Below are positions 3,114 through 20,464 of a DNA stretch of 63,821 nt, piece after piece (the stretch's first letter is position 1; the number at the start of each line of letters is the position of its first letter). This DNA is from Myxococcales bacterium. GTDB lineage: Bacteria; Myxococcota_A; Polyangia; Polyangiales; Polyangiaceae. A program made the position numbers and the translations under genes. Location of the stretch: the NCBI GenBank assembly GCA_016704525.1, contig JADIZX010000009.1, forward strand, positions 170,625 to 234,445. The letters are read 5' to 3'. Under the pieces are notes generated by a model. That model had not been told where the DNA came from. It searched no databases and saw only the letters and a program-made list of their open reading frames with translations.

Positions 3114-3755
3114 TCAGCTCACGCGTCGCACGAGCACGATGGGCCACTCCGGCGCGCGCTGGCTCTCGGGCAGGGTAGGGAGAGCCCCCTCGGTCGCGAA
3201 GAGCGCCTCGCGGAGGTCGGCCACGTCGCGCCATCGCACGGACCTCCGCGGGTGCAGCGCCCTCGCCACCGCGCGCGAGACCTTCGACGGGACCGGCGAG
3301 GAGAACAGCGCTCGCGCGCCGACCGGGCCGTGCGGGCCGAGCCGCGGCTCCTCGCCCGTGAGCAGAACGTAGAGCAAGGCGCCCACGACGAACACGTCGT
3401 CCTGCTCGCGCGCGACCTCGTCCGAGACGCGACCGCCGCGCAGGCTGTGAGGCGCCGGCAAATCGGCGTGGGAGTACCCCGCGCCCGCGACCGAGAGGCC
3501 GCCATCGTCCAGCAGGTCGACGCTCTCCGTGTTCACGTGACCGAGCCGCACGCCCGCAGCGTGCGCGCGCTCGACGTGAAAGAGCAGCACGTCCGCGATC
3601 CGCAGCACCTCGTCGACAGGCAGCCTCCCGCCCGCCGCCAGGCGCCTGTGCTCGAGGCTCTCGCCCGCGCGCGGCGCGGCGACCGCTCGATAGACACCCG
3701 ACTCCTCGCTGACGTTGTGTGCCGCGCCCATTTCGACCTCCGCGTGGGGGTTCAT
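3114..3755 (-). CDS. Protein-kinase-like C-lobe-only protein, a possible pseudokinase fragment.
   Basis: HVNTESVDLL aligns with the catalytic loop and ...DVFVVGALLYVLLTGEEP with subdomain IX. No N-lobe or glycine loop lies upstream. Confidence 0.45.
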   Translation of the reverse strand: MNPHAEVEMGAAHNVSEESGVYRAVAAPRAGESLEHRRLAAGGRLPVDEVLRIADVLLFHVERAHAAGVRLGHVNTESVDLLDDGGLSVAGAGYSHADLPAPHSLRGGRVSDEVAREQDDVFVVGALLYVLLTGEEPRLGPHGPVGARALFSSPVPSKVSRAVARALHPRRSVRWRDVADLREALFATEGALPTLPESQRAPEWPIVLVRRVS

Positions 3756-3875
3756 GCCTTACTCCCTTCGGTCGCGTGGCATAGGCACGCCGCTCGCCGG
3801 AGGCTCGCTTGCATGTTCGCTTGCCCCTGTTTGGAACGTGGGGGCATCGCGGGAAATGGATCACAAGGTAGGTAA

Positions 3876-4733: not shown

Positions 4734-4777
4734 GGCGGCTGCCTCTCCCGTTCTCCCTCGCCTCGCGCGCCCGCCTC

Positions 4778-5962
4778 TCAGCGCTCGACGACGACGGCGA
4801 GCGCTTCGCCGCCGCCGATACAGAGGGTCGCGAGGCCGCGCTTCTTGTCGCGCTGGATCATGCTGTGGACCAGGGTGGTGAGGATGCGCGCGCCGCTCGC
4901 GCCGATCGGGTGACCGAGGGCCACGGCCCCGCCGCGCACGTTCACGCGCTCGCGGTCGATCTTGCACTGATCGGCGCACACCATCGAGACGACGGCGAAG
5001 GCCTCGTTGATCTCGAACAGGTCGATGTCGGCGAGCTTGAGGCCGAGCTTCGCCGCCGCGTTGTCCATGGCCTTCGCGGGCGCCGTCGTGAACCACTCGG
5101 GCGCCTGGGCCGCGCCGGCGTACCCGACGATGCGGGCGAGCGGGGTGAGGCCGTGCTTCTTCACGGCCTCCTCGCTCGCGAGCACGAGGGCGCTCGCGCC
5201 GTCGTTGATGGACGACGCGTTCGCCGCGGTGATCGTCCCGTCCTTCGAGAAGGCCGCGCGGAGCGACGCGAACTTGGACGGATCGCCCTTGCCGGGGCCT
5301 TCGTCAGTCTTCACGACGAGCGCGTCGCCCTTCTTCTGCGGCACGGAGACCGGCGTGATCTCCGCGTCGAAGAGGCCCTCTTTCTGGGCGGCGAGCGCCT
5401 TGCGGAAGCTCTCGCGGGCGTACTCGTCCTGCGCCTCGCGCGTGTAGTTGAACTCCTTCGCGCACAGGTCGCCACAGTTGCCCATGTGCACGTTGCCGTA
5501 CGGGTCCCAGAGGCCGTCGAAGATCATGCCGTCGACCAGCGTGCCGTTCCCCATGCGGTAACCGCTGCGCGCTTTGTCGAGGTAATACGGCACGTTGGAC
5601 ATCGACTCCATGCCGCCGACGACCACGAGCTCGGCGTCGCCGACCGCCAGCGTCTTGGTGCCGAGCACCACGGCCTGGAGCCCGGAGCCGCACACCTTGC
5701 TGACGGTCGTGGCGGGCACGCTGTTCGGGAGGCCCCCGTAGATCAGCGCCTGACGCGCGGGCGCTTGCCCCAACCCGGCGGAGAGCACGTTGCCCATGAA
5801 CACTTCGCCGATGAGGCCGGCGTCGACCTTCGCCTGCGCGAGGGCGCCCTGGATGGCGGCGGCGCCCAGCTTCGGGGCAGACACCGAGGAGAGGGCGCCC
5901 TGGAACGCTCCGATCGGGGTGCGGGTCGCAGAGACGATGTAGACGGGGGGCAAGCTGGGCAT
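4778..5962 (-). CDS. Acetyl-CoA C-acetyltransferase (thiolase II), 394 aa.
   Basis: MPSLPPVYIVSATRTPIGAF...CGSGLQAV...NEAFA...CIGGGEALAVVVER shows full-length thiolase signatures. A GAGGAG RBS precedes the start. Confidence 0.9.
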   Translation of the reverse strand: MPSLPPVYIVSATRTPIGAFQGALSSVSAPKLGAAAIQGALAQAKVDAGLIGEVFMGNVLSAGLGQAPARQALIYGGLPNSVPATTVSKVCGSGLQAVVLGTKTLAVGDAELVVVGGMESMSNVPYYLDKARSGYRMGNGTLVDGMIFDGLWDPYGNVHMGNCGDLCAKEFNYTREAQDEYARESFRKALAAQKEGLFDAEITPVSVPQKKGDALVVKTDEGPGKGDPSKFASLRAAFSKDGTITAANASSINDGASALVLASEEAVKKHGLTPLARIVGYAGAAQAPEWFTTAPAKAMDNAAAKLGLKLADIDLFEINEAFAVVSMVCADQCKIDRERVNVRGGAVALGHPIGASGARILTTLVHSMIQRDKKRGLATLCIGGGEALAVVVER

Positions 5963-6171
5963 GACAACTCCTCGGAGGCGCGCGGGGCGCGAAGGCGGCG
6001 CGGTCGTGACGTGACCGTCGCGGTGGCGAGCGAGACGAGACGCGCGACGGCAGGCGCTGCGTGACCCGACGGGCGCCGTTATACCCCGCGTCGGCCCGCG
6101 GCGCACTCCGCGCGGCGCACCGCCGAAGGGTGGCTTCCTCGGGCGAGAGAGCCTGGTAGAGTCGACGCGCC

Positions 6172-6723
6172 GTGCCGACAACCCCCGGTCCACTGCCCCC
6201 GCGCGTCGCCGTGGCGATCGTGCTCGTCGCGTCGCTTGCGGCGGGGCTGGCGACGGCCCACTGCGGCACCGCGGGGGGTGGCTCCGCAGACCGCGAGGCG
6301 GGCGCAGCGGACGACGCGGCCCGCGCCGCCCCGGCGGTTTGCCCCGAGGCCCTCCCCGAGGCGGGCGTGTGGTGCGCGCTGCCCGAAGGGACCACATGCG
6401 CCTACGGGCCCTGCGGCGCTTTCGCCCGGTGCACCCGCGGCGCGTTCGTGCGGGCCACGAGCCCGCGCGCGAGCCTGTGCCCCACCTCGCCTCCGCCCGA
6501 GGGCAGCCCCTGCGGCCCCTGCTTCGCCGATGGAGGGGTGTGCGCATATGGCGATCCCACCTGCGCAGACGCACAGGTGCCCCCCGCGATCTCCACCTGT
6601 TTCGGCGGTCGTTTTGCGACGAGAGCCATCGAATGTGAGGCCGGACCCGGCGACGCGGCCGCCGCGGACTCGGGCGGTGACGGCGAGGTGGATGCGGCGG
6701 CCGACTCCCCGAGCGACGGTTGA
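6172..6723 (+). CDS. Cys-rich secreted protein or lipoprotein (hypothetical).
   Basis: GTG start. An N-terminal hydrophobic segment ends ...LATAHC and the mature part holds ~14 Cys. GC3 is high. Confidence 0.45.
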   Translation: MPTTPGPLPPRVAVAIVLVASLAAGLATAHCGTAGGGSADREAGAADDAARAAPAVCPEALPEAGVWCALPEGTTCAYGPCGAFARCTRGAFVRATSPRASLCPTSPPPEGSPCGPCFADGGVCAYGDPTCADAQVPPAISTCFGGRFATRAIECEAGPGDAAAADSGGDGEVDAAADSPSDG

Positions 6724-6881
6724 GCCGCGCGCGACTTGCGCGGCCCCGGTCCCGTGGGCTAGGAAACGCGGCTTCGTTCGTTCGCTCGTTCGCTCGTTCG
6801 CGCGTCGCTTCCCATCCACTCACCGCGCACGGCGCAGCGCGCACCGCTGGCGGGTCCCCTGCCGTCATTCCGAGGAATCCC

Positions 6882-7211
6882 ATGTCCGAGTCCAAGTTCG
6901 CCGCGTTCATCACCGAGAAGAAGCTCAACCAGGCGCGCATTCTGTCGGCGTCGCACACGATCGAGTCGCTCCGGCCCGAAGACCGCCTCATCCGCCTCGA
7001 GAAGTGGCGCGCGAAGCAGGGCGACACCCCCTCGGAGAAGAAGACCTTCCCGAAGCCGCGCTCCGGCCGCCCCGTGACGCCCCGCGCGATGGCCGCTGCG
7101 CTCGCTGGCAAGCCCCTCACCGGCCCGCAGAAGCAGCGCATCCTCCGCGCCGTCAACGCCCTGCTCGAGCAGAAGAAGACCGAGAAGGTCGAGTTGAAGA
7201 CGCTGTTCTAG
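6882..7211 (+). CDS. Small Lys-rich hypothetical protein, 109 aa.
   Basis: GAGGAA RBS followed by ATG. The protein MSESKFAAFITEKKLNQARIL... looks real. Local GC is lower. Confidence 0.65.
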   Translation: MSESKFAAFITEKKLNQARILSASHTIESLRPEDRLIRLEKWRAKQGDTPSEKKTFPKPRSGRPVTPRAMAAALAGKPLTGPQKQRILRAVNALLEQKKTEKVELKTLF

Positions 7212-7383
7212 GACTCGCGACGGGCGCGAGGCCCCTCCTAGCGATAGGACGGAGCCTCGCGCGGCCAGGGCGCTCGAGGCCAACGCTGGCCCAACGCTTA
7301 CAAGTCCGTAGGCCTACGGCGTCGAAGGAAATTTCTTCGCCGCAAATTGGGCCACCCGGGCGCGTTGGGTGCAGGTTGCACGT

Positions 7384-7479
7384 ATGGCCGTCTTTGCGTT
7401 GCTGCTCGTTGTTTTTGTGGTCGTATTCGACCTGCACGACCTCGCGAACCGCAAGCGCCTGCGGCGCGACGAGGGGTGA
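7384..7479 (+). CDS. Possible 31-aa membrane micro-protein (MAVFALLLVVFVVVFDLHDLANRKRLRRDEG), located upstream of the ECF sigma gene.
   Basis: This ORF is not in the track and was read directly from the sequence. It has a hydrophobic helix plus a basic tail, but the RBS is weak. Confidence 0.25.
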   Translation: MAVFALLLVVFVVVFDLHDLANRKRLRRDEG

Positions 7480-7692
7480 CGTACCCGTTTCCCGCCAGGA
7501 CCCCACGGAGCCCCGCATGCTGAATGCCTCTCGACCGCTCCGCACCCTACCCAGGGAATGGTCCAGGCCCTTCAGTTCGCGCCCGCCCCCGCCGAGGGGA
7601 CCCGACGCGTCGCGACGCGCTTTCCGCGTCGCGTCCGGGGTGCGCCGCCGCGGCTCCTCGAGAGCCCGCGTGCGCGCCGCTGGCTCGCCATC

Positions 7693-8337
7693 GTGGTGCC
7701 CTGGTCCGAAGGCTCGGTTGGGGCGGGTGGACGGTTGAGCGACGACGAGGCCGCGAGCCTCCAGCGCGCGGCGAACGGTGACGCCGCCGCGTTCCGCGTG
7801 CTCTTCGCGCGGCACCGCGTCGACGTGCAGCGCCTCGTGTTTCGAATGGTGGGCGCGCGGCCCGACCTGGACGACATCGTCCAGGAGGTGTTCATCCAGG
7901 TGTACCGCAGCCTGCGTGACTTCCGCGGCCAGTCGAAGTTCTCGACATGGTTGCACCGGGTCACGGTGAACGTCGTGCTGATGCACCGCCGCGCTGCGCG
8001 GAGCCGCCCGACCTATACGGAGGAGGCGCCTGACGACCTCGCGCACGACGCGAAGCAGGTGCTCCCCGATGAGGCCGCGGCCCGTCACGAGCGGATGCGG
8101 GCCTTCGGCCGCCTGCTCGACCGCCTGGCCGACAAGAAGCGAATCGTCTTCGTGCTGCACGAGCTCGAAGGGAAGGCCCCGGCCGAGATCGCGGAGATTG
8201 TCGGCGCGCCGGTCCTGACCGTGCGGACGCGCCTCTTCTATGCGCGTCGCGAGCTCGAGGCGATGTGGCAGGACGAGCCCTCCTTGAAAGGGCTCGACGG
8301 GGGGTTCTCGCGTGCCTCGGCAGAGGAGGACTCATGA
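7693..8337 (+). CDS. ECF (sigma-70 family) RNA polymerase sigma factor.
   Basis: Region 2 motif DIVQEVFIQVYR...FSTWLHRVTVNVV and region 4 ...FVLHELEGKAPAEIAEIVGAPVLTVRTRL are present. The start is uncertain (GTG 7693 or TTG 7717), while the track ORF begins at 7558. Confidence 0.75.
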   Translation: MVPWSEGSVGAGGRLSDDEAASLQRAANGDAAAFRVLFARHRVDVQRLVFRMVGARPDLDDIVQEVFIQVYRSLRDFRGQSKFSTWLHRVTVNVVLMHRRAARSRPTYTEEAPDDLAHDAKQVLPDEAAARHERMRAFGRLLDRLADKKRIVFVLHELEGKAPAEIAEIVGAPVLTVRTRLFYARRELEAMWQDEPSLKGLDGGFSRASAEEDS

Positions 8338-8398
8338 ACGTGCGAGCGAGCAGCCGGCGAGCAGCGTGTCGATGCCACGCGACCGAGCGGAGCACGGT

Positions 8399-9742
8399 AT
8401 GAAGACCAAAGACCCCACCACGACCGACCCTCCGACCGCAGTGGACCCGCCGGCGACGCCGGTCGCGGACGTGGAAGAGGAGGACGAGTCGCTCGCGCCC
8501 GACGAGCTCGACGCCCTCGACGGTCCGGCGCCGTTCGCCGCCCTCACGGCGCTCACCGAGGAGGCGAAGGGCGCCTTCCTCCCCGTCGAGCCCGACGACG
8601 CGGCGTGGGCAGCGATGGAGGAGCGCTTGGTCCTGCGCCTCGCCACCGAGCGGGCCCTCGCGCGTCGCTCGAGGCGCACGCAGCTCGTCGTCGGCGTGGC
8701 GTCGAGCCTCGCGCTCGCGGCTGGCGCGATCTTCCTCATTCGTCCGGCCGATCCGTTACCGCCCTCCGAGCCTGTGCCCACGCTCGCGAGCGTCGTGAAG
8801 GGCGGCCCGCGCGGCGCAGCCCTGTCGACCCCGCTCCCTGGCGGCGGCGATAGCTTCTTTCAGGGCGATCCGGTCGAGGTCACCGGCGGCCCTCTGGCGT
8901 TCGAGGTCCCGGGCGTGGGCTCGGCGATCGTCACCCCGAGGCGGGCGATCTGGGCGCTCGATCCTGCCGGCGAGGGGAGCGCGAAGGCGGTCCTCACGAA
9001 GGCCACGGCGACGTCCCTCGTCGTCGCGCTCGAGCGCGGCGCGCTCGAGGCCGACGTGACCCCCGAGCGCGACGGCGAGGCGTTCGCCGTCGACGTCACC
9101 GGTGGCGCCGGCACGACGCGCGTCGCCGTTCACGGCACCCACCTGCGTGTGGCTCGGAAGGGCGACCACGTGACGATCGATCTCTCGGAGGGGGTCGTCG
9201 TGGTGGGCGCAGCGGGCCCGAGCCGCACCACGGGCCTCGAGCTGCGCGCCCCGGCGCACCTCGAGCTCGAGGCTGGGTCCGCGCCCTCGGCCGCGCAGGT
9301 CACGCGTGAGGTGCGCCCCGCGTGGACGCTCGATCTCGTCGCGGCCGGCCAGCCCCCGGCGGGGCCCACGAGCCCGTCCACGCCTGTCGACCTCGGCCCC
9401 GACGCCAGCGCCATCCCCGACGCCACCACCACGAGACCCGGCCCGCCCCGGCCTGCCGGCCCCGGCGTCCCGGCTCCGGTCGCCCTCACCGAAGGGCGCG
9501 CCCTCGCGGCGATCCAGGTGGACCTCAAGCGTTGTGTGGCCCAGGCGGCGGTCCCTGGCGCGGTGCGGGTCTCGATCGACAGCGAACTGTCGATCGAGGT
9601 GCGCGCTGACGGCACGGTCGCCGGGACCCGCTTCACGCCGCCGCTCGCCCCGGCGATCCAGGAGTGCGCGTCCGGCGCGATCTTCGCGCGACGCATCGAG
9701 GGGCCACGCACCCTCATCGTCCCGGTGAAGTTCGAGTTCTAG
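8399..9742 (+). CDS. Anti-sigma factor with a single transmembrane helix and a periplasmic domain (FecR-like).
   Basis: Immediately follows the ECF sigma gene. The TM helix is LVVGVASSLALAAGAIFLI. ATG 8399 has a GGAG 9 nt upstream. ATG 8372 and GTG 8312 are alternative starts. Confidence 0.65.
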   Translation: MKTKDPTTTDPPTAVDPPATPVADVEEEDESLAPDELDALDGPAPFAALTALTEEAKGAFLPVEPDDAAWAAMEERLVLRLATERALARRSRRTQLVVGVASSLALAAGAIFLIRPADPLPPSEPVPTLASVVKGGPRGAALSTPLPGGGDSFFQGDPVEVTGGPLAFEVPGVGSAIVTPRRAIWALDPAGEGSAKAVLTKATATSLVVALERGALEADVTPERDGEAFAVDVTGGAGTTRVAVHGTHLRVARKGDHVTIDLSEGVVVVGAAGPSRTTGLELRAPAHLELEAGSAPSAAQVTREVRPAWTLDLVAAGQPPAGPTSPSTPVDLGPDASAIPDATTTRPGPPRPAGPGVPAPVALTEGRALAAIQVDLKRCVAQAAVPGAVRVSIDSELSIEVRADGTVAGTRFTPPLAPAIQECASGAIFARRIEGPRTLIVPVKFEF

Positions 9743-9857
9743 AGCGCCGGGCCACAGCGGGTCGCGCCCCTGGACCACGGCGGGTTTCGCCTCGAGCGAC
9801 GCTCGTTCGCCGTTCGAGATCTTTGGCACTCTGGCCAGCCGGTCGCCCGCATGCGAC

Positions 9858-10166
9858 TCACTTCGGGCGAGCGAGCTTGGCGATGAGGTGGGTCTCTCGA
9901 GCGCCGAGCAGGCCGAACTGGACGCCCATCCCACCGTCGCGCTCCCAGCGGACGCGCGCGGGTAGAGTGGACGTCTCCGCGGCGCCGGGCAGCACCACCA
10001 TGATGTCGAGGTCGCTGTTGAACGGCGCCGGCGTCGAGGTCTCGATGAACATGCCGCCGATGCTCAGGTCTCGACCGCGACCTTCGTGCAGCTCGGGCTT
10101 GCCTCTCACCATGAACGTGAGCGGCACATCGATGTTCGAGCGCCCGAATTGACGGTGTTCTGCCAC
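9858..10166 (-). CDS. PilZ domain protein, a c-di-GMP receptor-type single-domain protein.
   Basis: RQFGRSN...GRGRDLSIGGMFIET matches the RxxxR...DxSxGG PilZ signature. Confidence 0.8.
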   Translation of the reverse strand: MAEHRQFGRSNIDVPLTFMVRGKPELHEGRGRDLSIGGMFIETSTPAPFNSDLDIMVVLPGAAETSTLPARVRWERDGGMGVQFGLLGARETHLIAKLARPK

Positions 10167-10171
10167 GGTTC

Positions 10172-11272
10172 GTGGATGCTACCATTTGCGCCGTGGAGGC
10201 CGAGGAGCGAAAGAGAGAGAGAGGGACATCTTCCCGCGGGCCGAAGGCGCGCGACGCGGCGCCGCTCCCTCCGGCCGTGGTGGCTGCCCTCTCGGCGGCG
10301 AAATCCACCGACGCGACGGGGCGCCCTTCGGCGACGGGTGGGCGCGCGCTCGCGCTCGTGCCCGTGGTCGTGATGCTCACGCTCGCGGCGCTGCTTTTTC
10401 CTCGCGCCGTGCCGCCTCAGGAGCTCCCCCTGCCGCGCGTGGACGTCCGCGCCCTCGAGGCCACGGCCGAGCGGGACGCGAACTACGCGCGCTTGGCCGA
10501 GCGGGGCCTCTCCGACGACACCCGTGTGCTGGGGACGAAGCTCCGGGCCTTCAACAACCTTCAAGCCAGCTCGGCCGACGAGAGCGCCATGATCGCGGGC
10601 CGGGCGGCGCTGAACCACGCGATCGCCGCCGTGCTCGAGCGCTCGCCGGCCGAGCTCAAGCTGCTCCGCGCCGCGCAGGTGACCCTGTTCCTTCGGGCGG
10701 TCGCCGACTTCGAGGCGACTGGGGTCGAGGGCGACGAGCTCATCGCTCTCGGCGGAACGTTCGTGTCGCGCCTGCGCGCGGTCGGTTGGATCAAGGAGCG
10801 CACCGTACTTCCCGACGCCGCCGTACGCGCCGCCCTCTACAAGCTCATGTGGGGCGCGACGCTCAACCTCACAGCGGACGCGACCCTCGACCTCTCACTC
10901 GACGAGCAGCGCGCGGTGCATGCATTTTACATCCTTCACCCGCACCCGTCCGACGCGCGCCGCACCGGCCTCGCCGCGGCGTGGGCCGCCGCGCACGCCG
11001 CGAGCTCCCCCGCGGCCGCCTGCGAGGAGGCGAGGCTCGCGGAGATCGCGGCCACGGAAGAGTGGCGACTCGAAAAGGTGCGCAAGCTTGGCACGCTCGA
11101 CCCCGACTACCCCACGAGCTTCGCGCTGGGGATTGGCCTCTATCGCCAGCGGAAATACGCGGCCTCGGCGGAGGCCTTCCGTGACTGGCTGCGCGAGCAC
11201 CCGACCGGCCCCCTCGCGCTGCGCGCGCAGAACCACCTCAAGGCGGCGATCGTGGCCGACTCGTCGCCCTAG
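10172..11272 (+). CDS. Hypothetical signal-anchored protein.
   Basis: One TM segment (ALALVPVVVMLTLAALLF) precedes a helical domain. The start is uncertain because it abuts the divergent PilZ gene. Confidence 0.5.
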   Translation: MDATICAVEAEERKRERGTSSRGPKARDAAPLPPAVVAALSAAKSTDATGRPSATGGRALALVPVVVMLTLAALLFPRAVPPQELPLPRVDVRALEATAERDANYARLAERGLSDDTRVLGTKLRAFNNLQASSADESAMIAGRAALNHAIAAVLERSPAELKLLRAAQVTLFLRAVADFEATGVEGDELIALGGTFVSRLRAVGWIKERTVLPDAAVRAALYKLMWGATLNLTADATLDLSLDEQRAVHAFYILHPHPSDARRTGLAAAWAAAHAASSPAAACEEARLAEIAATEEWRLEKVRKLGTLDPDYPTSFALGIGLYRQRKYAASAEAFRDWLREHPTGPLALRAQNHLKAAIVADSSP

Positions 11273-11431
11273 CTAGAGCGCCGAACCGCTTGATTCGGTC
11301 GGCCTTTCGCCGATTTACGTCGCCGTACTTCGTTGCTCCTCCTCGCCTAGCAGCAGTAGGACTCGTCGTCGCGCCCCGCACGGCTCGCAACTCGGCGAAA
11401 ATCCTCGGTCATCAAGCGGTTCGGCGCTCTA
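11270..11431. repeat. Intergenic element bounded by 22-bp perfect inverted repeats, CTAGAGCGCCGAACCGCTTGAT ... ATCAAGCGGTTCGGCGCTCTAG.
   Basis: Read directly from the sequence. The element begins at the TAG stop of the upstream gene. The interior contains CTAGCAGC. Confidence 0.6.
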
Positions 11432-11555
11432 GAAAGGGTCGCCTCGTCTCCTCCGAGCGAGAGGCCGTCGTCCACCCGACCTTGAAGGGCGTCCAGGGCC
11501 GCGCGGGCTCCGCCAGTTACGCGGTCCAGCCGTTCAAGCCTGGACGGGCGGTGGC

Positions 11556-12884
11556 TCACGAGCCCTCGGGGGGGTCGCACGGCGGCGTAGACGTGGACGT
11601 GGACGGAGGCGCGGGCGCGGGCGCGGGCGCGGGTGCAGGCGCCGGCGCGGGCACCGCGGTGGGGTCGGCGGGGGCTCGCTCTTCGCACGCGGCGGGCTGG
11701 GTCGAGACCCTCGCCCCGCGCACCGTGAGGCTGCCCGCGTAGGAGAGTTGGCGCGCGAAGAGCGCGCCGTCGATCGTCGCGTTGCCCGCAAAGGACACCT
11801 CGGCCTCGGGCGCGTACACGAGCCCATGGAACGCCTCCCTTCCGGCGAGCGTGAGCTTCGCGTTCTTGCCGCCCACGTAGAGGCGGAGCGCCTCGGGCCG
11901 CGTGGGATCGCCGAACGACGCCCGCCCGACCGTCGTCAGCGTACCGTCCACGAACATGTCCAGCGTCGCCCCCGCGCCGAGCACGATCTGGCCCTCGCCG
12001 ATCGTGGTCAGGTCGCCCTCCAGGTAGAGCTGCACCGCGCCTTCGATCCGCAAGCTCGTGCCGCGCAGCTCGCCCGCACCTGAGAAGTAGTAGCGGCCGT
12101 CGCGCAGCGTGAGTGGCGCGCCCTTCGCCACGATGCGCGCGTCGGTGCCGAGCCCCGCGCGCGCGTTGTCGTTCGCGCCGCGGGCGGCTCGCACCGCGCC
12201 GGCCACGTCGTAGAGAGCGCCGGGATCGCACGCGCACGGCGGCGCCCCCGGATCGACGTACGCGCCGCGGGCTCCGGCGACCTGGCGCCCGGCGAACGAC
12301 GTGGGCTCGGGAGTGCGGAGCGTGCCGCCTACGCGGAGGGAGCCCGCGCCCGAGAGCCGCCCACCGACGGCGAGGTCCGCGCCGACCGTGAGATCGCCCG
12401 CGCCCGACAGATCGCCCCCGGCGAGCGCGTGATCTCGCACGTCGAGGTCGCCGGCGAAGGACACGTCCGCCCCCGAGCGCAGGCTGCCGTCGATGCGGGT
12501 GCCGGACGCGAACGAGAGGCGACCGACGACGCCGACATCCGCGGTCTCGCCGGGTCGGGCGATGGTCGTGAGCTTGCCGGCGTGCGACATCGCGCCGCAC
12601 ACGCACACCGCGGCCTGCGCGAACAGCGCAGGCGCCGGGCTGCAGTGGGTCGTGAGCGCGGGAGGGCGTGGCCTCGGCGGGGCCGCGTACGAGAGCCCGC
12701 CGCTCTTCCCAACGCCCTGCGCCGCGCCGCTCTCCTCCACCTCTCCGCCGACGCGAATCGAACACGCCGACGCGAGGGTGAGCGCGGCGAGCGGCGCGAG
12801 CGACCAGACTCGCGAGACGCGCGGGGCGTGCGAGGTTCCCGCGACGGACGTTGAGCGATGGGGAGCAAGCTTGAAGGGGCGCAT
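11556..12884 (-). CDS. Lipoprotein with repetitive beta-strand repeats (bactofilin/DUF4097-like) and a C-terminal (AP)n tail.
   Basis: Start at MRPFKLAP... Lipobox ...LTLASAC. Repeats of the form GDLSGAGDLTVGADLAVGGRLSGAGSLRVGG. The tail APAPAPAPAPAPAP explains the GAGAGAG tract on the + strand. Confidence 0.6.
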   Translation of the reverse strand: MRPFKLAPHRSTSVAGTSHAPRVSRVWSLAPLAALTLASACSIRVGGEVEESGAAQGVGKSGGLSYAAPPRPRPPALTTHCSPAPALFAQAAVCVCGAMSHAGKLTTIARPGETADVGVVGRLSFASGTRIDGSLRSGADVSFAGDLDVRDHALAGGDLSGAGDLTVGADLAVGGRLSGAGSLRVGGTLRTPEPTSFAGRQVAGARGAYVDPGAPPCACDPGALYDVAGAVRAARGANDNARAGLGTDARIVAKGAPLTLRDGRYYFSGAGELRGTSLRIEGAVQLYLEGDLTTIGEGQIVLGAGATLDMFVDGTLTTVGRASFGDPTRPEALRLYVGGKNAKLTLAGREAFHGLVYAPEAEVSFAGNATIDGALFARQLSYAGSLTVRGARVSTQPAACEERAPADPTAVPAPAPAPAPAPAPAPPSTSTSTPPCDPPEGS

Positions 12885-13067
12885 CGGGTTCCTTTGGGTG
12901 AGGGGTCGACCCTCCTTTCGCACGCTGCGTGCCACCGCCCTCGCCGCGCAGCGCCCAGGTTTGCGCAGGTTTCTTGGTTCGGCCGCGTCGCCGCCGTCGC
13001 GCGGACCGCCGGAGCGCCCGCGTGCCCGCGTCACCGGCGACGCGGTCGCTCACGTCTCGGTCGGGCC

Positions 13068-13095
13068 TTGACAGTGCGAACGATCGTTCTATTAA
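13068..13095 (+). promoter_or_regulatory. Sigma70-like promoter (TTGACA-N16-TATTAA) with an embedded GAACGATCGTTC palindrome that is a probable TetR operator.
   Basis: Near-consensus -35 and -10 hexamers in a 70% GC background. A 12-bp perfect palindrome lies in the spacer. The TetR GTG start is at 13102, implying a leaderless or very short-leader mRNA. Confidence 0.55.
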
Positions 13096-13101
13096 TGGGG
13101 G

Positions 13102-13704
13102 GTGGGCAAAGGGGAAAAGACCCGAGCGACGATCCTCGAGATGGCCCTCGCCGACGCGAGCGAGCGCGGGCTCGAGGGCCTCAGCATCGGCGGCCTGGCC
13201 GGGCGCGCCAACATGTCGAAGAGCGGGCTCTTCGCCCACTTCGGCTCGAAGGACGAGCTCCAGCTCGCCGTCCTTGCCGAGGCCGTCGACCGCTTCGTCG
13301 AATTCGTGATGGCCCCCGCCTTGAAGGAGCCCCGGGGCGAGCCGCGGTTCCGCGCGCTCTTCGAGCGTTGGCTGCTCTGGGCACGTCAACCCTTCCAGCC
13401 GGGCGGGTGCATCTTCCTCGCGGCGGCCGTCGAGCTCGACGACCGCCCCGGCCACGCGCGCGATCGCCTGGTGGCGTCACAGCGCGACTGGCTCGACGTG
13501 CTCGCGAACGCGGCGCGCATCGCGGTGGAGGAGGGGCACTTCCGCCGCGACCTCGACGTCGAGCAGCTCGCCTTCGAGATGTACGCCATGGCGCAGGGCT
13601 TCCACCAGCTCGAGCGCCTCATGCGCGACCCTCGCGCCGAGTCGCGCGCCCGCACCGCCTTCGAGCGCTTGATGTGCGACGCACGTGCCAGGCCCCGCAG
13701 CTGA
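13102..13704 (+). CDS. TetR/AcrR family transcriptional regulator.
   Basis: The N-terminal HTH TRATILEMALADASERGLEGLSIGGLAGRANMSKSGLFAHFGSKDEL is canonical TetR. Confidence 0.85.
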   Translation: MGKGEKTRATILEMALADASERGLEGLSIGGLAGRANMSKSGLFAHFGSKDELQLAVLAEAVDRFVEFVMAPALKEPRGEPRFRALFERWLLWARQPFQPGGCIFLAAAVELDDRPGHARDRLVASQRDWLDVLANAARIAVEEGHFRRDLDVEQLAFEMYAMAQGFHQLERLMRDPRAESRARTAFERLMCDARARPRS

Positions 13705-13810
13705 CCGCACGCCTCGTCGTAGCCAGCCTTGCGGCTGCCACGGTCGGCCCCGCGTCCCACGTCTCTAGCCCCAATAGCCCCAATCCCTAGCCCCCTCTTG
13801 GAGGAGCCCC

Positions 13811-14737
13811 ATGTCGACCCATCCACACCTGCAAAATAGAACGAACGGTCGGACTCTGATCGCTCGAGAACTGCTCGCGCTCGGCGACGCCATGGCACCC
13901 AAACTCGTGGGCTCCTGGGCGGCAGCGAGGTTCTTCTCGCCGGCGCGCCGGCGGCGGCCCGCGTGGGAGGCCGCCGTCCTCGCGAGTGGGCGGCGGGGCG
14001 CCGTGCGCGCGCCGGAGGGCTCGCTGCCGACCTGGACCTGGGGCGCAGGGCCGAGCGTGGTGCTCGTGCACGGCTGGGAGGGTCGTGGCAGCCAGCTCGG
14101 CGCGGTGGTCGACACGCTCGTCGCCGGGGGGCGCTCGGTCGTCGCGTTCGACGCGCCGGGCCACGGCGACGCCCCGGGTCGCACCGCGTCGGTCATCGAG
14201 CTCGCGCGCGCCCTCACGCTCGTCGCGACGCAGACGCCGGACGTCGAGGCGATCGTCGCGCACTCTCTGGGCGCGGCGGCCACGATGGTCGCGCTCGCCC
14301 GCGCCGACCTGGCTCGGAAGGCCGTGTTCGTCGCGCCACCTCTCGCCGCGGCGCCTTGGGCCGACGGATTCGCGAGGCGCGTCGGCCTGCCCGAGCGCGT
14401 GGAGCGCGCGTTCCGGCGTGGCCTCGTGGAGCGCCTCGGCGTGCCCGTCGAGACCATCGACGCGCGCGTGCTGCGGCCTCTCGGCGCCGTCGACCTGCTC
14501 GTCGTCCACGACGCCACCGACCGCGAGGTGCCCGTAGAGCTCGGTCGCGAGGTGGCCTCCGCCTGGGGCGGCCGGCTCGTGGAGACGCGAGGTCTCGGGC
14601 ACCGCCGGATCCTCCGCAGCCCGCGCCTCGCCGACGAGGTCGTGGCCTTCCTCTCCGGGCGAGCGCCAGAGGGGCCGCAGGCCGAGCTCGAGGGAGAGCT
14701 CTTCCACCGCGAGCGCCGCTGGGACGGTCTGCACTGA
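13811..14737 (+). CDS. Alpha/beta hydrolase.
   Basis: VVLVHGWEG...AHSLGA nucleophile elbow. Lies downstream of the TetR gene, so a likely regulated target. Confidence 0.75.
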   Translation: MSTHPHLQNRTNGRTLIARELLALGDAMAPKLVGSWAAARFFSPARRRRPAWEAAVLASGRRGAVRAPEGSLPTWTWGAGPSVVLVHGWEGRGSQLGAVVDTLVAGGRSVVAFDAPGHGDAPGRTASVIELARALTLVATQTPDVEAIVAHSLGAAATMVALARADLARKAVFVAPPLAAAPWADGFARRVGLPERVERAFRRGLVERLGVPVETIDARVLRPLGAVDLLVVHDATDREVPVELGREVASAWGGRLVETRGLGHRRILRSPRLADEVVAFLSGRAPEGPQAELEGELFHRERRWDGLH

Positions 14738-14832
14738 GCGCCCGACGGCGTGTCAGGCGCCGGCGCGATTGAACGGTCAAGCGGACGGCGCGCCGCGAAA
14801 GGTTCCCGGGAATCGACGCGGGAGCCGCCTCG

Positions 14833-15339
14833 CTACGGCTCGTCGGGCTCGTCGCCGGCGCTCGGCGTGGCGGCTCGCGCGCCGGTCGCCGTGTAGGCCT
14901 GCGCGCACCTCGGCTTCGAACCGCCCTGCGTCTGCACGGTGACGTGGAACGGCGTGGTTGGCTGCGCCGCCCCCACGTACGTGGCCGCGAGCCTGTCGCA
15001 GGTGGGTGGGGTGCCGAGCGGGCCGACCTGGCACACGATCATGCGGGGCTCCTTCGAGGGATCGCCCTTCGGCGGCCCCGCGTCGGCGATCTCGCGGATG
15101 AGATCGCCCATACGGGCGGGGTCGAACACCATCGCCTCCTGGCAGCCGGCCTTGCGGAGCTCCTTCGTGCCGGGCGCCGTGCGCGCCTCTTCGGCCATCT
15201 TCGACCCCTCCCCGATGACCCGCGCGATCTTCTTGCCCTCGGGTGACGACATCACGCGCCACGCGCCGATCGCCACGAGGATCACGCCGACGACCACGAG
15301 CGCCGCGAGCACCATCACGGCGATCAGGCACCCGCTCAT
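14833..15339 (-). CDS. Hypothetical membrane-anchored protein.
   Basis: Start MSGCLIAVMVLAALVVVGVILVAIGAW with a GAAGGGG RBS. The TM segment is followed by a soluble domain. Confidence 0.5.
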   Translation of the reverse strand: MSGCLIAVMVLAALVVVGVILVAIGAWRVMSSPEGKKIARVIGEGSKMAEEARTAPGTKELRKAGCQEAMVFDPARMGDLIREIADAGPPKGDPSKEPRMIVCQVGPLGTPPTCDRLAATYVGAAQPTTPFHVTVQTQGGSKPRCAQAYTATGARAATPSAGDEPDEP

Positions 15340-15627
15340 CCCCTTCTTTGGTTGAACCGGCTGACCGTGGCCTTGCGGATGCTGCACGTGAAGCTCCTTC
15401 TCGACGCGACGGCGCGCCCCCCTCTACGTACAGCGTTCTCCGGCCGCTGAGAACGCCGCCGAGCGCGGTCGCCGGCGCGCTCGCGAGGCTGCGGTGCGCC
15501 CCAGGCTGCGCCCTTCGCTCGCTGCTGCCGATCGTCCCGCTCTTCGCTGCCTTCGCCGCGACCGCCATCACCGCGCGGCGCAGGGCAACCGGTCGAGGTC
15601 ACCTTGGGGACGACTGAAGGGCGCGCT

Positions 15628-16599
15628 CTAGCCCGACGACGCGAGCGCAGCCCGCAGCGCGTCCCGGATCGACACGAGGCTCCGCACCCCGAAGAGCGCC
15701 ACGGACGGCGCGGACGGACGAAAGGCCTCGTCGATCCACGCGCCGAGCGTCGCGTCGTCGACGTCCGGCCCCTCGCTCACGCGGGCCTCGAGCCACGCGA
15801 CGCGATCGCGCGAGGCCATGAGCTCGCCACCGAGTCGCACGCGCAACCTCTCGTCTCTCCAAGAGAAAACGGGTCCAATGGCCTCCTCGACGCGCGCCAA
15901 CGGCGACGGCGCAGTCTCCACGACGGGCGGCGCGTCGGCGGCCGGGAGCCGCTCCACGGGCAGCCCGAACGCCTCCGCGAGCGCGGCCTCGACGCGCGCG
16001 GGATCGACGGCGCCACGGTCACCGCGAAGCTCGGCGAAGGTCGCGGGGGCGCGCCCACCGTAGGAGAGGCGCGCGGCGTCCGGGAGGGCGCTCGACGCGA
16101 GGGACACGAAGGCCTCGACGACGGTGCGTCGCGTGCCCGCGTCATGCCCGAACGCGACGAGGCCGACCGGGCGCTTGTCGGCGGAGAGCCAGTCGCGCCC
16201 GAAGTAATGGGTGGGCACGGCCACGCGGGTCAGCGCGCGGAGGATCGGGCGTACCGCGCGGTTCAGCAGCTGGTCGCACGTCGCCGGCATGAGCGCGCCC
16301 GGGTGCGGGAGCGAGAGCCCTACGTAGAGGACGCCGGGGCCGAGGCGGGCCGACGCGCCGCCCGATGCGCGACGGAACCGTGGCACGCTCGCGAGCGGCC
16401 CCAGATCTTCACGCTGCATCGGTGGAGGCGCGGGCTGAAACGCGCCGAGGAGCAGGGCCTCGCGCGCGGGCCACGCCACCAGGAGGCGAGGCGAGGCCGA
16501 GGCGTCGTCGAGGGCGCGCTGGGAGAACGCCGCGACCGCGGCCGGCGAGGGCGCGTGGGGCGTGGGGTCGTGGGCGTCGTCGCGCGAGGGAGCGTTCAC
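15628..16599 (-). CDS. Lipoate-protein ligase family protein (LplA/LipB-like).
   Basis: ...LLVAWPAREALLLGAFQ... and the FRRASGGASARLGPGVLYVGLSLP block match the BPL/LPL catalytic-domain motif. Confidence 0.6.
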   Translation of the reverse strand: MNAPSRDDAHDPTPHAPSPAAVAAFSQRALDDASASPRLLVAWPAREALLLGAFQPAPPPMQREDLGPLASVPRFRRASGGASARLGPGVLYVGLSLPHPGALMPATCDQLLNRAVRPILRALTRVAVPTHYFGRDWLSADKRPVGLVAFGHDAGTRRTVVEAFVSLASSALPDAARLSYGGRAPATFAELRGDRGAVDPARVEAALAEAFGLPVERLPAADAPPVVETAPSPLARVEEAIGPVFSWRDERLRVRLGGELMASRDRVAWLEARVSEGPDVDDATLGAWIDEAFRPSAPSVALFGVRSLVSIRDALRAALASSG

Positions 16600-16699
16600 G
16601 CCGCACCTCTAGCACTCGGCCGTCGCGTCGCGCGCCTTGGACGCGCCCGCCAGCGCGCGCGAGCGTGGCGACCGGCCGCCCGATGGGCGAAGATGGGGC

Positions 16700-18065
16700 A
16701 TGACCAAGCTCGCGTCGAGCTCCGGCGACACCTGCGTACGGCTCCTCCAGGACCTCATCCGGCAGCCCACCGTGAACCGCGGCACGGGCGGGGAGGACGA
16801 CGGTCACGAGCACCTCTGCGCCTCGCGCCTCGCGGACTTCGCGCGCGACGCCGGGCTCGAGCCCAAGACGTTCGCGAAGGTGAAGAACCGCGACAACCTG
16901 GTGGTGAGGCTCCGCGGCTCGGGCGCGAAGCCGCCGCTGCTCCTCAACGCCCACACCGACGTCGTCGAGGCCGACGCCGCCCGCTGGACTCACCCGCCCT
17001 TCGGCGGAGAGATCCACGACGGGTACCTCTGGGGTCGCGGGGCCATCGACATGAAGCACATGGCGGCGATGAGCGCCTGCGTGCTCGCGCGGCTGAAGGA
17101 AGAGGGCGTGCCGCTGGAGCGCGACGTCATCTTCGCCGCCGTCGCCGACGAGGAGGCGGGGTGCGGCCTCGGCAGCACGTACCTCGTGGACGACCACCCC
17201 GACGAAGTACGTGCAGAGTACATGCTCGGCGAGGTGGGCGCGTTCTCGCTGAACCTGCTCGGCAAGGTCTTCTACCCCGTGCAGGTCGCGGAGAAGGGCG
17301 CCGTGTGGCTGCGCGCCACGTACACGGGCGCTCCGGGCCACGGCTCCATGCCGGACCCGAACAGCGCGGTCGTGCGGCTCGCCGAGGCCATCGCGAGGCT
17401 TGGGCGCACGCGCCTGCCCATGCACCCCGTGCCCGTCGTGACCGACTTCGTCACGCGGCTCGCCGCGTCGCTGCCGTTCCCGCAGAGCCAGGCGCTGAAG
17501 CGCCTCACCACACCCCAGATCGCCGGGCTCATCCTCGACTACCTCGTGAAGGATCCCGACCAGCGGCGGAGCTTCGGCGCGATGCTCTCCAGCACCGCGT
17601 CGCCCACGGTGGTGCGCCGGCCACAAGGTGAACGTGATCCCGGGCCGCGCGAGCGTGGAGATCGACGGTCGCACGCTGCCAGGCCAGTCCGAGCTCGCCT
17701 TCCTGGCAGAGCTCCGCGAGCTGCTCGGGCCCGACGCCGAGGTCGAGGTGCTCCGATCGCTCCCCGCCGTGGAGACCGATCCGACGACGCCGCTTTACGG
17801 CCACCTCGAGCGCATGCTCCGGAAGCATGACCCGCTAGGTGAGCCACTTCCCTACATGGTGGTGGGGTTCACCGACGCGAAGGCCTACGCCCGATTGGGC
17901 ACCCATTGCTACGGGTTCGCGCCCGTAAAATTCGACCCCACGCACGAGATCAGCTTCCAGAAGATGTACCACGGCCACGACGAGCGCGTGCCGGTGGACG
18001 GCCTCGCGTGGGGTCTCGAGGTGCTCTACGAGACCGTCCGCGACTTCTGCGCGCCTCGCCGCTGA
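16700..18065 (+). pseudogene. M20 family metallopeptidase (ArgE/DapE-like), interrupted by a +1 frameshift near 17610-17620.
   Basis: The N-terminal part is in frame 16700..~17615 (NAHTDVV, DMKHMAAM, ADEEAGCGLGS motifs). The C-terminal part GHKVNVIPGRASVEIDGRTLPG... is in the 17628 frame. Deleting one nt in gtggtgCgccggccac fuses them to SPTVVAGHKVNVIPG. Confidence 0.7.

Positions 18066-20155: not shown

Positions 20156-20464
<309 letters not shown>

What the first reader, a model, noticed from the sequence alone, without database searches (positions are those of the whole stretch)
11270..11431. Stop-codon-anchored inverted-repeat elements with TAGC...TTGAT termini (also 33747-33942 and 43265-43346)
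Three unrelated genes end with a TAG that is simultaneously the first base triplet of an intergenic element bounded by inverted repeats. The first is TAGCTAGAGCGCCGAACCGCTTGAT...ATCAAGCGGTTCGGCGCTCTAG, a 22-bp perfect TIR spanning 157 bp. The second is TAGCAGCCCGTTGAT...ATCCACAGGCTGCTAGCTAG, spanning ~195 bp. The third is TAGCAGCCCGTTGAT...CCCAGGCTGCTAC, spanning ~82 bp. The 15-mer TAGCAGCCCGTTGAT occurs identically after two different genes. CTAG is normally strongly avoided in GC-rich genomes, yet CTAGCAGC/GCTGCTAG recurs here (also 11349 and 45494). This suggests a small element family that inserts at, or supplies, TAG stop codons. A REP-like terminator or mRNA-stability element is an alternative. 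These are not canonical rho-independent terminators because they lack a U-tract.
Basis: seen in the sequence. Interest (0 to 1): 0.6.

Follow-up and report, generated by a model that had tools for sequence, protein, structure and literature searches.

The report
TA-targeting miniature transposons at stop codons
The three "stop-codon-anchored" repeats are small non-coding transposons (MITEs) of an uncultured myxobacterium that insert at the TA of CTAG, a sequence that in this 72% GC genome is found largely at TAG stop codons; this is a tidy but fairly ordinary kind of mobile DNA.

Summary
The window comes from a Myxococcales/Polyangiaceae MAG (GCA_016720545.1) and holds at least three MITE families.

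- **Family A (TA|GCAGCC...GGCTGC|TA, 177-189 bp):** 33747-33935 is a full copy. 43265-43354 is a 90-bp derivative. 29463-29509 is a 47-bp remnant.
- **Family B (TA|GAGCGCC...GGCGCTC|TA, about 158 bp):** 11274-11431.
- **Family C (300 bp):** 33963-34262 and 52263-52562.

Pattern scans found dozens of A and B copies with unrelated flanks, all in Polyangiaceae/Myxococcales MAGs and GC-rich metagenome contigs. Many lie at contig breaks.

All three families are flanked by a duplicated TA, usually inside CTAG. This is the target behaviour of IS630/Tc1-mariner elements. No transposase partner was found.

CTAG is rare here, almost absent inside genes, and about a third of sites are stop codons. All three families begin with G and end with C, so insertion regenerates TAG. 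Target availability therefore explains the anchoring.

Orthologous loci lack the elements. A co-specific strain differs by the 4-nt footprint (TA-GC-TA) predicted for excision.

Verdict: new members of a known kind, of modest interest.

The parts
11274..11431 (.). Family B MITE (element 1), 158 bp including both flanking TAs: TA|GAGCGCCGAACCGCTTGAT...ATCAAGCGGTTCGGCGCTC|TA, sitting in C-TA-G
   Evidence: (I5). There are 24 further loci with the same ends and unrelated flanks. Seven complete copies are 97% identical.
11269..11276 (+). CTAGCTAG: stop codon TAG (11270-11272) of gene 10172..11272, followed by 4 extra nt (GCTA) that are absent in co-specific strain L087. Candidate TA-GC-TA excision footprint of a GC...GC-ended (family A) element.
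   Evidence: the window and L086 read GCCCTAGCTAGAGCGCC; L087 reads GCCCTAGAGCGCC. (ISY100 cleavage chemistry). (the same +4 nt in L041 compared with L056).
11347..11350 (.). Internal CTAG of family B. Other elements have inserted at this site in other copies.
   Evidence: L041, L051, L056.
33747..33935 (-). Family A MITE, full length (element 2), 189 bp including both TAs. The left TA is part of the TAG stop of gene 32502..33749 (metallophosphoesterase).
43265..43354 (+). Family A derivative (element 3), 90 bp: 76 nt of one arm plus about 12 nt of the other end. Its two TAs lie in the stop codons of the convergent genes 41702..43267(+) and 43352..45502(-). It sits at a synteny breakpoint.
   Evidence: (I3).
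29463..29509 (-). Truncated family A (subfamily A2) copy, 47 nt. It provides the last five codons (VAARR) and the TAA stop of glycosyltransferase gene 29493..30668(-).
33963..34262 (.). Family C MITE, 300 bp: TA|GTCCCCTGGAAGCG...CCAGGGGAC|TA, in C-TA-G.
   Evidence: (I1, D15). L056 carries a 93% copy.
34261..34350 (+). Partial second family C copy (91 nt of the left end), abutting the first at the regenerated CTAG.
   Evidence: D15, I2.
52263..52562 (.). Family C MITE, inverted copy (97-98% identical). Its right TA lies in the stop codon of GDPD gene 52560..53930(-).
   Evidence: (I1).
19807..19940 (.). Diverged fragment related to the interior of family C (73% over 142 nt).

Best explanation
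The three items are copies of non-autonomous DNA transposons (MITEs) resident in Polyangiaceae genomes. Each element has terminal inverted repeats and a largely palindromic body. It has no coding capacity and is flanked by a 2-bp TA duplication.

The preferred target is the TA inside CTAG. This is the behaviour of IS630/Tc1-mariner ("Stowaway-like") elements, so a transposase of that type, encoded elsewhere in the genome, most likely moves them by cut-and-paste (inferred).

The stop-codon anchoring follows from three facts:
1. TA, and CTAG especially, is scarce in a 72% GC genome and nearly absent inside genes.
2. A large share of the CTAGs that exist are "codon ending in C + TAG stop".
3. All three families start with G and end with C. 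Insertion into the TA of a TAG therefore rebuilds TAG (and CTAG) at both junctions. The protein is unchanged, and a new target is created for the next insertion.

Side effects seen here:
- nested and abutting insertions;
- internally deleted mini-copies;
- a remnant that rewrites the last five codons and the stop of one gene;
- a copy sitting at a roughly 42-kb rearrangement junction.
For: **Shown**
- **Multi-copy with unique flanks.** The family A terminus pattern hit 38 loci, all in Polyangiaceae/Myxococcales MAGs. Of these, 27 are in one MAG and 17 break the contig within 55 nt of the end. The family B terminus hit 24 GC-rich metagenome loci plus 7 chance hits.
- **Defined ends and size.** Fifteen complete A copies measure 170-254 bp. 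Seven complete single B copies measure 151-159 bp, and one further span (L040:291-522, 232 bp) is a nested double. There are 2 complete C copies of 300 bp.
- **TA duplication rather than a 4-bp one.** The bases flanking the TAs give CTAG x9, CTAA x2, GTAG x2, TTAG x1 and TTAA x1 for family A, and CTAG 8/8 for family B. The six non-CTAG cases are incompatible with a 4-bp direct repeat.
- **Orthologous sites without the element.**
  - L070 (84% identity) has a 19-bp spacer and a TGA stop where the window has element 1.
  - L076 has no element after the glycosyltransferase gene.
  - L077 (85%) has ccgTAG with no element where element 3 starts.
- **Strain polymorphism.** L087 encodes an identical protein. 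It carries element 1 directly on the stop-codon TA, without the 4-nt GCTA and with a 40-nt internal deletion.
- **Nesting at each other's CTAGs**.
- **Stop-codon statistics.** Among scored termini, 31/83 are in-frame stops and 4 are off-frame. Among other CTAG orientations, 22/289 are in-frame stops.

**From the literature**
- IS630/ISY100 insert at TA and duplicate it, and IS630 prefers CTAG.
- ISY100 cuts 2 nt inside the 5' ends and leaves a TA-NN-TA junction (PMC2170065).
- This predicts TAGCTA for GC...GC-ended family A, which matches the extra 4 nt in the window compared with L087, and in L041 compared with L056.
Against: - No autonomous element or transposase with matching ends was found in the window, or in about 420 kb of fetched loci. 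The IS630 assignment therefore rests on target, duplication and footprint only.
- Element 3 is not explained by one simple insertion. Removing it leaves the plus-strand gene without a stop, and its neighbour gene is not the ancestral one.
- None of the element-free orthologous sites is a base-perfect empty site on both sides.
- The foldback of family A is kept by 12 compensatory pair changes between subfamilies. Plain decay of two independent arms would not give this, so some constraint or copying process acts on the hairpin itself.
- TAGCTA is not conspicuously more frequent than TACGTA overall, so the footprint reading rests on a few specific junctions.
Confidence: 0.85

Rival explanations
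1. They are MITEs derived from an IS5-family element (PIF/Harbinger-like), which duplicates a 4-bp CTAG/YTAR target, as MITEPsy1 does in Pseudomonas syringae.
For: Most copies show CTAG on both sides. Family B starts with GAG, which from my own memory is typical of several IS5 subgroups. MITEPsy1 duplicates CTAG or YTAA (PMC3189936).
Against: Six of 15 complete family A copies, and element 3, have different 4-mers at the two ends (for example TTAG/CTAA in L034 and TTAG/CTAG in L035). Only TA is repeated. The 4-nt GCTA polymorphism fits 2-nt-staggered IS630-type excision. Some IS5 subgroups reportedly make 2-3-bp duplications (my memory, not checked), so the rival is not fully excluded.
Confidence: 0.08
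2. They are host-serving structured elements (REP/BIME-like, or 3'-UTR hairpins acting as terminators or mRNA stabilisers). On this reading their placement after stop codons is functional, and mobility is secondary or absent.
For: They form very stable hairpins. Family A keeps 97% of pairs and shows 12 compensatory pairs, against 7.0 +/- 1.7 in shuffles and 0-4 in slid controls. Many copies lie immediately 3' of genes. ERIC and Correia hairpins are known to affect mRNA stability (PMC2229807).
Against: - There is no U-tract and no terminator-like site, and no Rfam match.
- Copies occur in both orientations relative to the anchored gene.
- They also lie upstream of genes and nested inside one another.
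- Their sizes (158-300 bp) and the TA duplication are unlike REPs.
- Orthologous genes do without them.
- An effect on transcripts as a by-product is not excluded.
Confidence: 0.05
3. Chance, or coding relic: the shared 15-mer is the tail of an alternative reading frame (CTA GCA GCC CGT TGA = LAAR*), or a coincidence of GC-rich sequence.
For: ORFs 32195..33760 and 42784..43278 do end in LAAR* within the 15-mer. Gene 29493..30668 really does end in ...VAARR* within it.
Against: GC3 periodicity supports the frames that end at TAG. Similarity extends 76-189 nt beyond the 15-mer into non-coding DNA. The same sequence is found at more than 60 unrelated loci in other genomes.
Confidence: 0.01

Closest known systems
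RUP (repeat unit of pneumococcus), the MITE proposed to be mobilised by IS630-Spn1
   Same: A short (107 bp) non-coding element with terminal inverted repeats. It inserts at TA, is present in many copies, and is inserted into other mobile elements (PMC2229807).
   Different: For RUP a matching IS630-family parent is known; here none was found. The host is low-GC, so no stop-codon bias is reported. There is no sequence similarity. The present families are longer and almost fully palindromic.
IS630 / ISY100 (bacterial Tc1-mariner family) and plant Stowaway MITEs
   Same: TA target with 2-bp duplication. IS630 prefers the TA in CTAG. Cut-and-paste excision leaves TA-NN-TA (PMC2170065). This matches the TA flanks, the CTAG preference and the TAGCTA junctions seen here.
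   Different: Those are autonomous elements of about 1-1.2 kb that encode a DDE transposase, or eukaryotic MITEs. Here only non-autonomous copies of 48-300 bp were seen, and transposase binding was not tested.
Correia / NEMIS elements of Neisseria
   Same: Palindromic MITEs of 100-155 bp that are co-transcribed with neighbouring genes and fold into hairpins, with some copies fused to reading frames (PMC2229807). The TA target is from my own knowledge.
   Different: Different host and sequence. Correia elements carry IHF sites and promoter elements; no promoter-like site was found here.
MITEPsy1 (IS5-derived, Pseudomonas syringae)
   Same: Inserts at CTAG or YTAA (PMC3189936).
   Different: It duplicates 4 bp. 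The present elements duplicate only TA.
DUF6783-associated 162-nt MITE-like element of Eubacteriales
   Same: [quoted passage not shown]
   Different: No target duplication was reported for it. It carries an ORF on each strand and inserts in-frame. Its hosts are unrelated low-GC bacteria.
REP/BIME elements and their RAYT transposases
   Same: Intergenic palindromes, often just after stop codons, with a conserved tetranucleotide head (GTAG in REPs, from my knowledge).
   Different: REPs are 20-40 nt, have no TA duplication, and cluster in alternating arrays. The present elements are 158-300 bp with a TA duplication and a CTAG head.

Membership tests
MITE (miniature inverted-repeat transposable element) | Small size and no coding capacity | tested here: met
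   Complete copies are 151-159 bp (B), 170-254 bp (A) and 300 bp (C). No ORF is confined to them.
MITE (miniature inverted-repeat transposable element) | Terminal inverted repeats | tested here: met
   Family B has 22 nt of perfect repeat. Family A has TAGCAGCCYGTTGAT / ATCAACGGGCTGCTA. Family C has TAGTCCCCTGGA / TCCAGGGGACTA.
MITE (miniature inverted-repeat transposable element) | Target-site duplication | tested here: met
   TA is present on both sides of every complete copy. The adjacent bases vary in 6/15 A copies, so only TA is repeated.
MITE (miniature inverted-repeat transposable element) | Many copies at unrelated loci | tested here: met
   38 loci for A and 24 loci for B, with unique flanks, plus assembly breaks at the repeat.
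MITE (miniature inverted-repeat transposable element) | Presence/absence at orthologous sites | tested here: met
   L070, L076 and L077 lack the element. There is a strain-level 4-nt and 40-nt polymorphism at element 1. No base-perfect two-sided empty site was obtained.
MITE (miniature inverted-repeat transposable element) | A co-resident autonomous element with matching ends | tested here: inconclusive
   None was found in the window or in about 420 kb of fetched loci. Whole genomes could not be scanned.
IS630/Tc1-mariner-derived (Stowaway-like) element | Insertion at TA with 2-bp TA duplication | tested here: met
   Literature standard in PMC2170065.
IS630/Tc1-mariner-derived (Stowaway-like) element | Preference for the TA in 5'-CTAG-3' (IS630 itself) | tested here: met
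   CTAG in 9/15 A copies, 8/8 B copies and 2/2 C copies. The base before the TAG is C in 30 of 38 A termini.
IS630/Tc1-mariner-derived (Stowaway-like) element | Cut-and-paste excision leaving TA + 2 nt + TA | tested here: inconclusive
   TAGCTA is present where L087 and L056 have a single TA, and CTAGCTAG occurs 5 times. However, TAGCTA is not enriched over TACGTA overall.
IS630/Tc1-mariner-derived (Stowaway-like) element | Ends bound by, or similar to the ends of, an IS630-family transposase gene | not testable with these tools
   No IS database was available and no whole-genome access to the host. No transposase was found in the fetched DNA.
IS5-family-derived MITE | 3-4-bp duplication of CTAG/YTAR/TNA | tested here: not met
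   Left and right 4-mers differ in L014, L015, L027, L034, L035, L048 and element 3.
REP/BIME | 20-40-nt imperfect palindrome, no target duplication, arrays in alternating orientation | tested here: not met
   Units are 158-300 bp with a TA duplication, and are single or nested rather than arrayed.
Intrinsic (rho-independent) terminator | GC-rich hairpin followed by a U-tract | tested here: not met
   No terminator-like site lies in or at the elements.
Any curated RNA family (Rfam 15) | Score at or above the gathering threshold | tested here: not met
   0 matches in the whole window.

The most novel reading that the evidence does not exclude
The end design shared by all three families (TA|G...C|TA) may be an adaptation that makes TAG stop codons safe harbours. 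The foldback, kept by compensatory substitutions, may act at the RNA or single-strand DNA level. On this reading the elements have become a genome-wide layer of 3'-end hairpins in Polyangiaceae. That layer would stabilise or terminate transcripts, occasionally rewrite C-termini and stops (as in gene 29493..30668), and seed rearrangements (as at element 3).
Probability: 0.12. Interest if true: 0.55.

Novelty: new member of a known kind. Interest (0 to 1): 0.33.

Why it matters
**For annotators.** The result explains a recurrent oddity in Polyangiaceae MAGs.
- Many contigs break at these repeats.
- Gene ends are followed by long hairpins.
- Some stops and C-terminal residues come from a transposon.
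- About a third of the CTAG sites in the window are element-made.

**For transposon biology.** It is a clean natural example of how a simple target preference (TA in CTAG), combined with extreme base composition, funnels insertions onto stop codons. An element whose ends regenerate the target can then pile up there harmlessly.

**Practical leads.** It gives three well-defined consensus sequences with which to look for the responsible transposase. It also offers markers for strain-level variation in wastewater and soil myxobacteria. None of this overturns current understanding.

Tried and rejected
- **Rfam scan of the whole window:** no hit.
- **Promoter and terminator consensus scans over elements 1 and 2:** nothing in the elements.
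- **Search for an autonomous parent:**
  - I paired termini at 0.1-3 kb.
  - I inspected unpaired termini. L052 carries only a 58-nt remnant upstream of an ordinary gene.
  - I ran Pfam on 20 window proteins.
  - I ran an all-against-all comparison of fetched loci for repeats of 450 bp or more.
  - No transposase was found.
- **Viral contig scans with both termini:** 0 hits.
- **Literature on MITEs in myxobacteria or Sorangium:** nothing relevant.
- **Alternative-frame coding relic (LAAR*):** rejected on GC3 periodicity and on the external copies.
- **IS200/IS605-type element:** ISDra2 targets TTGAT (from my memory). I rejected this because the ends here are symmetrical inverted repeats with a TA duplication.
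- **Integron attC:** rejected because there is no GTTRRRY core and the genes are convergent chromosomal genes.
- **CTAGAGCGCCG at 9739 and GCTGCTAG at 45499:** no partner repeat and no match to the families beyond 11-13 nt, so I treat them as chance or unrecognisable relics.
- **General test of the footprint idea:** counting all TA-NN-TA hexamers gave no clear enrichment of TAGCTA.
Full report
**1. Observation**

The window is 71.7% GC.

Codon-position GC content supports real genes ending at the stated TAGs:
- 10121..11272(+), TAG at 11270
- 32220..33749(+), TAG at 33747
- 41696..43267(+), TAG at 43265

The convergent gene 43352..45502(-) also ends in TAG, on the far end of the third element.

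The genes involved are unrelated:
- an uncharacterised protein
- a metallophosphoesterase
- a trypsin-like protease
- a beta-helix protein

Other checks on the observation:
- Element 1 has 22-nt perfect terminal repeats inside 53-nt arms (I5). It folds far better than shuffles: -91.5 kcal/mol, z = -7.9.
- Element 2 is a 189-bp imperfect hairpin, z = -2.7.
- Element 3 has only about 10 nt of terminal complementarity and an unremarkable fold.
- The 15-mer TAGCAGCCCGTTGAT occurs twice exactly, and three further times with 1-3 mismatches, against 0.68 expected.
- CTAG occurs 39 times against 81 +/- 8 expected.

- In this window the stop TAG of the first gene is followed by CTAG and is not itself part of the repeat.
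- Element 3 ends at 43354, not 43346.
- Element 1 is a different family from elements 2 and 3.

**2. The items are repeat families, not isolated hairpins**

Inside the window:
- 33862-33937 is an 86% reverse-complement copy of 43263-43338 (I3).
- A third partial copy lies at 29463-29509.
- A separate 300-bp element occurs at 33963-34262 and, inverted, at 52263-52562 (97-98% identity). It has a partial tandem copy at 34261-34350 and a diverged fragment at 19807-19940.

I call the families:
- A: TA|GCAGCC...
- B: TA|GAGCGCC..., which is element 1
- C: TA|GTCCCCTGG...

Outside the window:
- One scan of 185,579 species-representative genomes with the family A terminus returned 38 loci. All were in Polyangiaceae/Myxococcales MAGs. 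Twenty-seven were in a single MAG, and 17 ended within 55 nt of the terminus. That is how assemblers behave at multi-copy repeats.
- A metagenome scan with the family B terminus returned 24 GC-rich loci with the full element, plus 7 obvious chance hits in lower-GC contigs.
- Flanks are unrelated from copy to copy.

Copy structure:
- Complete A copies are 170-254 bp (mostly 177-189) and fall into two subfamilies.
- Complete single B copies are 151-159 bp and 97% identical, which suggests a recent burst.
- A and B share a subterminal motif, TTGAT(N0-4)GACCGAGG.

The window itself comes from Myxococcales MAG GCA_016720545.1, contig JADKKK010000003.1.

**3. Target and duplication**

Every complete copy is bracketed by TA. 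The bases outside the TAs give these targets:

| Family | Target counts |
|---|---|
| A | CTAG x9, CTAA x2, GTAG x2, TTAG x1, TTAA x1 |
| B | CTAG 8/8 |
| C | CTAG 2/2 |

CTAG is palindromic, so a 4-bp duplication would look the same at CTAG sites. The six non-CTAG family A copies, and element 3 (C-TA-C), show that only TA is repeated.

TA duplication with a preference for the TA in CTAG is the published behaviour of IS630. TA duplication is the rule for the IS630/Tc1-mariner family (PMC2170065, citing Tenzen and Ohtsubo 1991). An IS5-type MITE such as MITEPsy1 duplicates 4 bp (PMC3189936), and that does not fit here.

**4. Why stop codons**

All three families begin with G and end with C. Insertion into N-TA-N therefore yields N-TA-G...C-TA-N. 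A TAG stop hit in its TA is rebuilt, on either strand. At a CTAG target, both junctions become CTAG again.

Across all fetched copies:

| Class of site | In-frame stop of a GC3-supported ORF | Off-frame | Total scored |
|---|---|---|---|
| Element termini | 31 (37%) | 4 | 83 |
| Other CTAG orientations | 22 (7.6%) | not tallied here | 289 |

The second baseline is deflated by CTAGs internal to the elements, so I also made a cleaner census of the window:
- Only 2 of 39 CTAGs are clearly intragenic.
- Roughly 8-10 of about 26 element-free CTAGs are stop codons (31-38%).
- 3 of 6 reconstructed insertion sites are stop codons.

The anchoring is thus what target availability predicts, together with loss of insertions that disrupt genes. 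Nothing indicates recognition of stop codons as such.

**5. Evidence for mobility**

Orthologues of the gene before element 1:
- The orthologues are L070 (84% identity), L071 (72%) and L074 (65%). All end in TGA or TAA and lack the element.
- In L070 the convergent neighbour is only 19 bp away, against 283 bp in the window.

Orthologues of the beta-helix gene:
- L077 (85%) ends ccgTAG with no element.

Orthologues of the glycosyltransferase gene:
- L076 (80%) has no element.
- L075 (92%) has a 48-bp mini family A copy, with both ends, 2 bp after its TGA.

A strain carrying an identical protein (L087, GCA_020051655.1):
- L087 reads GCCC-TA-GAGCGCC, so element 1 sits directly on the stop codon. 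Its copy also has a 40-nt internal deletion.
- The window and L086 read GCCC-TA-GC-TA-GAGCGCC.

The footprint reading (inference):
- ISY100 transposase cuts exactly at the 3' ends and 2 nt inside the 5' ends. The re-joined donor carries TA-NN-TA (PMC2170065).
- For the GC...GC-ended family A this predicts TAGCTA, which is exactly the extra sequence in the window.
- The same +4 nt distinguishes L041 from L056 at an otherwise identical C-in-B junction. L059 carries TAGCTAGCTTAGCTAG between a B and a C copy.
- It is a specific prediction that was met. However, TAGCTA is not generally enriched over other TA-NN-TA hexamers.

**6. Consequences visible in the window**

(a) Nesting.
- 33747-34350 is about 600 bp of A, C and partial C upstream of a molybdopterin oxidoreductase gene.
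- In other loci, elements sit in each other's regenerated or internal CTAGs.

(b) Gene-end rewriting.
- Glycosyltransferase 29493..30668(-) ends ...AELLALVAARR-TAA.
- The last five codons and the stop lie inside the 47-nt family A remnant.
- The 92% orthologue ends ...AELLAQVPA-TGA.

(c) Rearrangement.
- In L077, L081 and L084 the beta-helix gene converges on the orthologue of window gene 977..2830. In the window that gene lies 41 kb away and in the opposite relative orientation.
- Element 3 therefore sits at a breakpoint of an apparent 42-kb inversion.
- Removing element 3 with one TA would leave the trypsin-like gene without a stop.
- I therefore infer that element 3 is a recombinant or deletion product of two family A copies, one at each gene's TAG.
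- The reciprocal junction (872-976) shows no recognisable family A sequence, only CTAGCTTAGC at 868. This inference stays unproven.

**7. Structure and the RNA alternative**

The family A foldback is strongly conserved:
- 97.1% of pair cells form standard pairs.
- 12 pairs show compensatory changes, against 7.0 +/- 1.7 in shuffles (2/500 reach the observed value) and 0-4 in slid controls.
- Most of these changes separate subfamily A1 from A2, so they represent few independent events.

Even so, the two arms have not drifted apart independently. The hairpin may be constrained, or one arm may be copied from the other. This is the one feature the plain MITE model does not explain.

Against a dedicated RNA role:
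- no U-tract and no terminator-like site
- no Rfam family
- both orientations relative to anchored genes
- frequent non-3' positions
- orthologous genes do without the elements

Effects on transcript 3' ends as a by-product remain plausible, by analogy with ERIC and Correia elements (PMC2229807).

**8. Comparison with what is known, and verdict**

By function these elements work like Stowaway or RUP-type MITEs mobilised in trans by an IS630/Tc1-mariner transposase.

Membership as MITEs is met on:
- size
- terminal inverted repeats
- target duplication
- copy number
- presence/absence at orthologous sites

The cognate autonomous element was not found and could not be searched for genome-wide, so the superfamily assignment is an inference. 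I put it at about 0.65-0.7 within the 0.85 for the MITE reading.

The literature search found no description of MITEs in myxobacteria. A MITE-like element that often lands on TAG stops has been noted in Eubacteriales.

The finding is therefore a set of new members of a known kind. It comes with a satisfying explanation for the stop-codon pattern and some instructive details: a footprint polymorphism, stop-codon donation and a rearrangement junction. Interest is modest.

Noticed in passing
window 3751-3818, 8336-8403, about 49610-49657: A conserved leader of about 65 nt sits immediately upstream of three start codons. The genes are 3114..3755(-), a gene starting near 8347(+), and FtsX/MacB-like 49658..50860(+). 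The sense-strand consensus is roughly GGCGTGYCKATGCCACSCGACCGARSGGAG..ATGAA, with a short GCGTG/CACGC stem. It also hits 3-4 Polyangiaceae loci (I4, 64, 65). It could be a shared promoter, 5'-UTR or operator.
   Followed up: partly
window 58549-63000: Three tandem repeats of about 1450 bp, 82-100% identical between units. They carry paralogous minus-strand ORFs, one with a weak DUF1565 match (D1-D18, 67, 82).
   Followed up: partly
window 872-987 and 43265-43354, compared with L077, L081, L084: Relative to three increasingly distant relatives, the block 977..43264 appears inverted. In the relatives the beta-helix gene converges on the orthologue of window gene 977..2830. One breakpoint is at element 3. 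The other lies next to CTAGCTTAGC at 868-877.
   Followed up: partly
window 29493-29510: The glycosyltransferase gene's last five codons (VAARR) and its TAA stop come from a transposon remnant. The 92% orthologue ends QVPA-TGA and is followed by a 48-bp mini-copy of the same family.
   Followed up: yes
L027:4536-4789: A family A copy carries two copies of a further insert of about 26 nt (TCCCTCGTCAGGGACTTCCAAGGGTCG). One of the two lies at an internal CTAG of the element. This suggests yet another, even smaller, CTAG-targeting element.
   Followed up: no
window 54829-54832: A single CTAG serves as the overlapping stop codon of two convergent GC3-supported ORFs, 53828..54832(+) and 54829..55281(-). 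It is an unoccupied example of the preferred target.
   Followed up: no
window 43160-43267: The trypsin-like protease ends with a Cys-containing, hydrophobic, RRRR tail. From my memory this resembles the MYXO-CTERM sorting signal, which would fit the Myxococcota origin. I did not test it against a model.
   Followed up: no
window 41868-41960 and 28977-29096: Coding tandem repeats: 9-nt units (GGGCAGGCG, Gly/Gln/Ala-rich) in the protease gene, and 12-nt units (Pro/Asp/Ala/Thr-rich) in gene 28734..29459 (D4 and D6).
   Followed up: no
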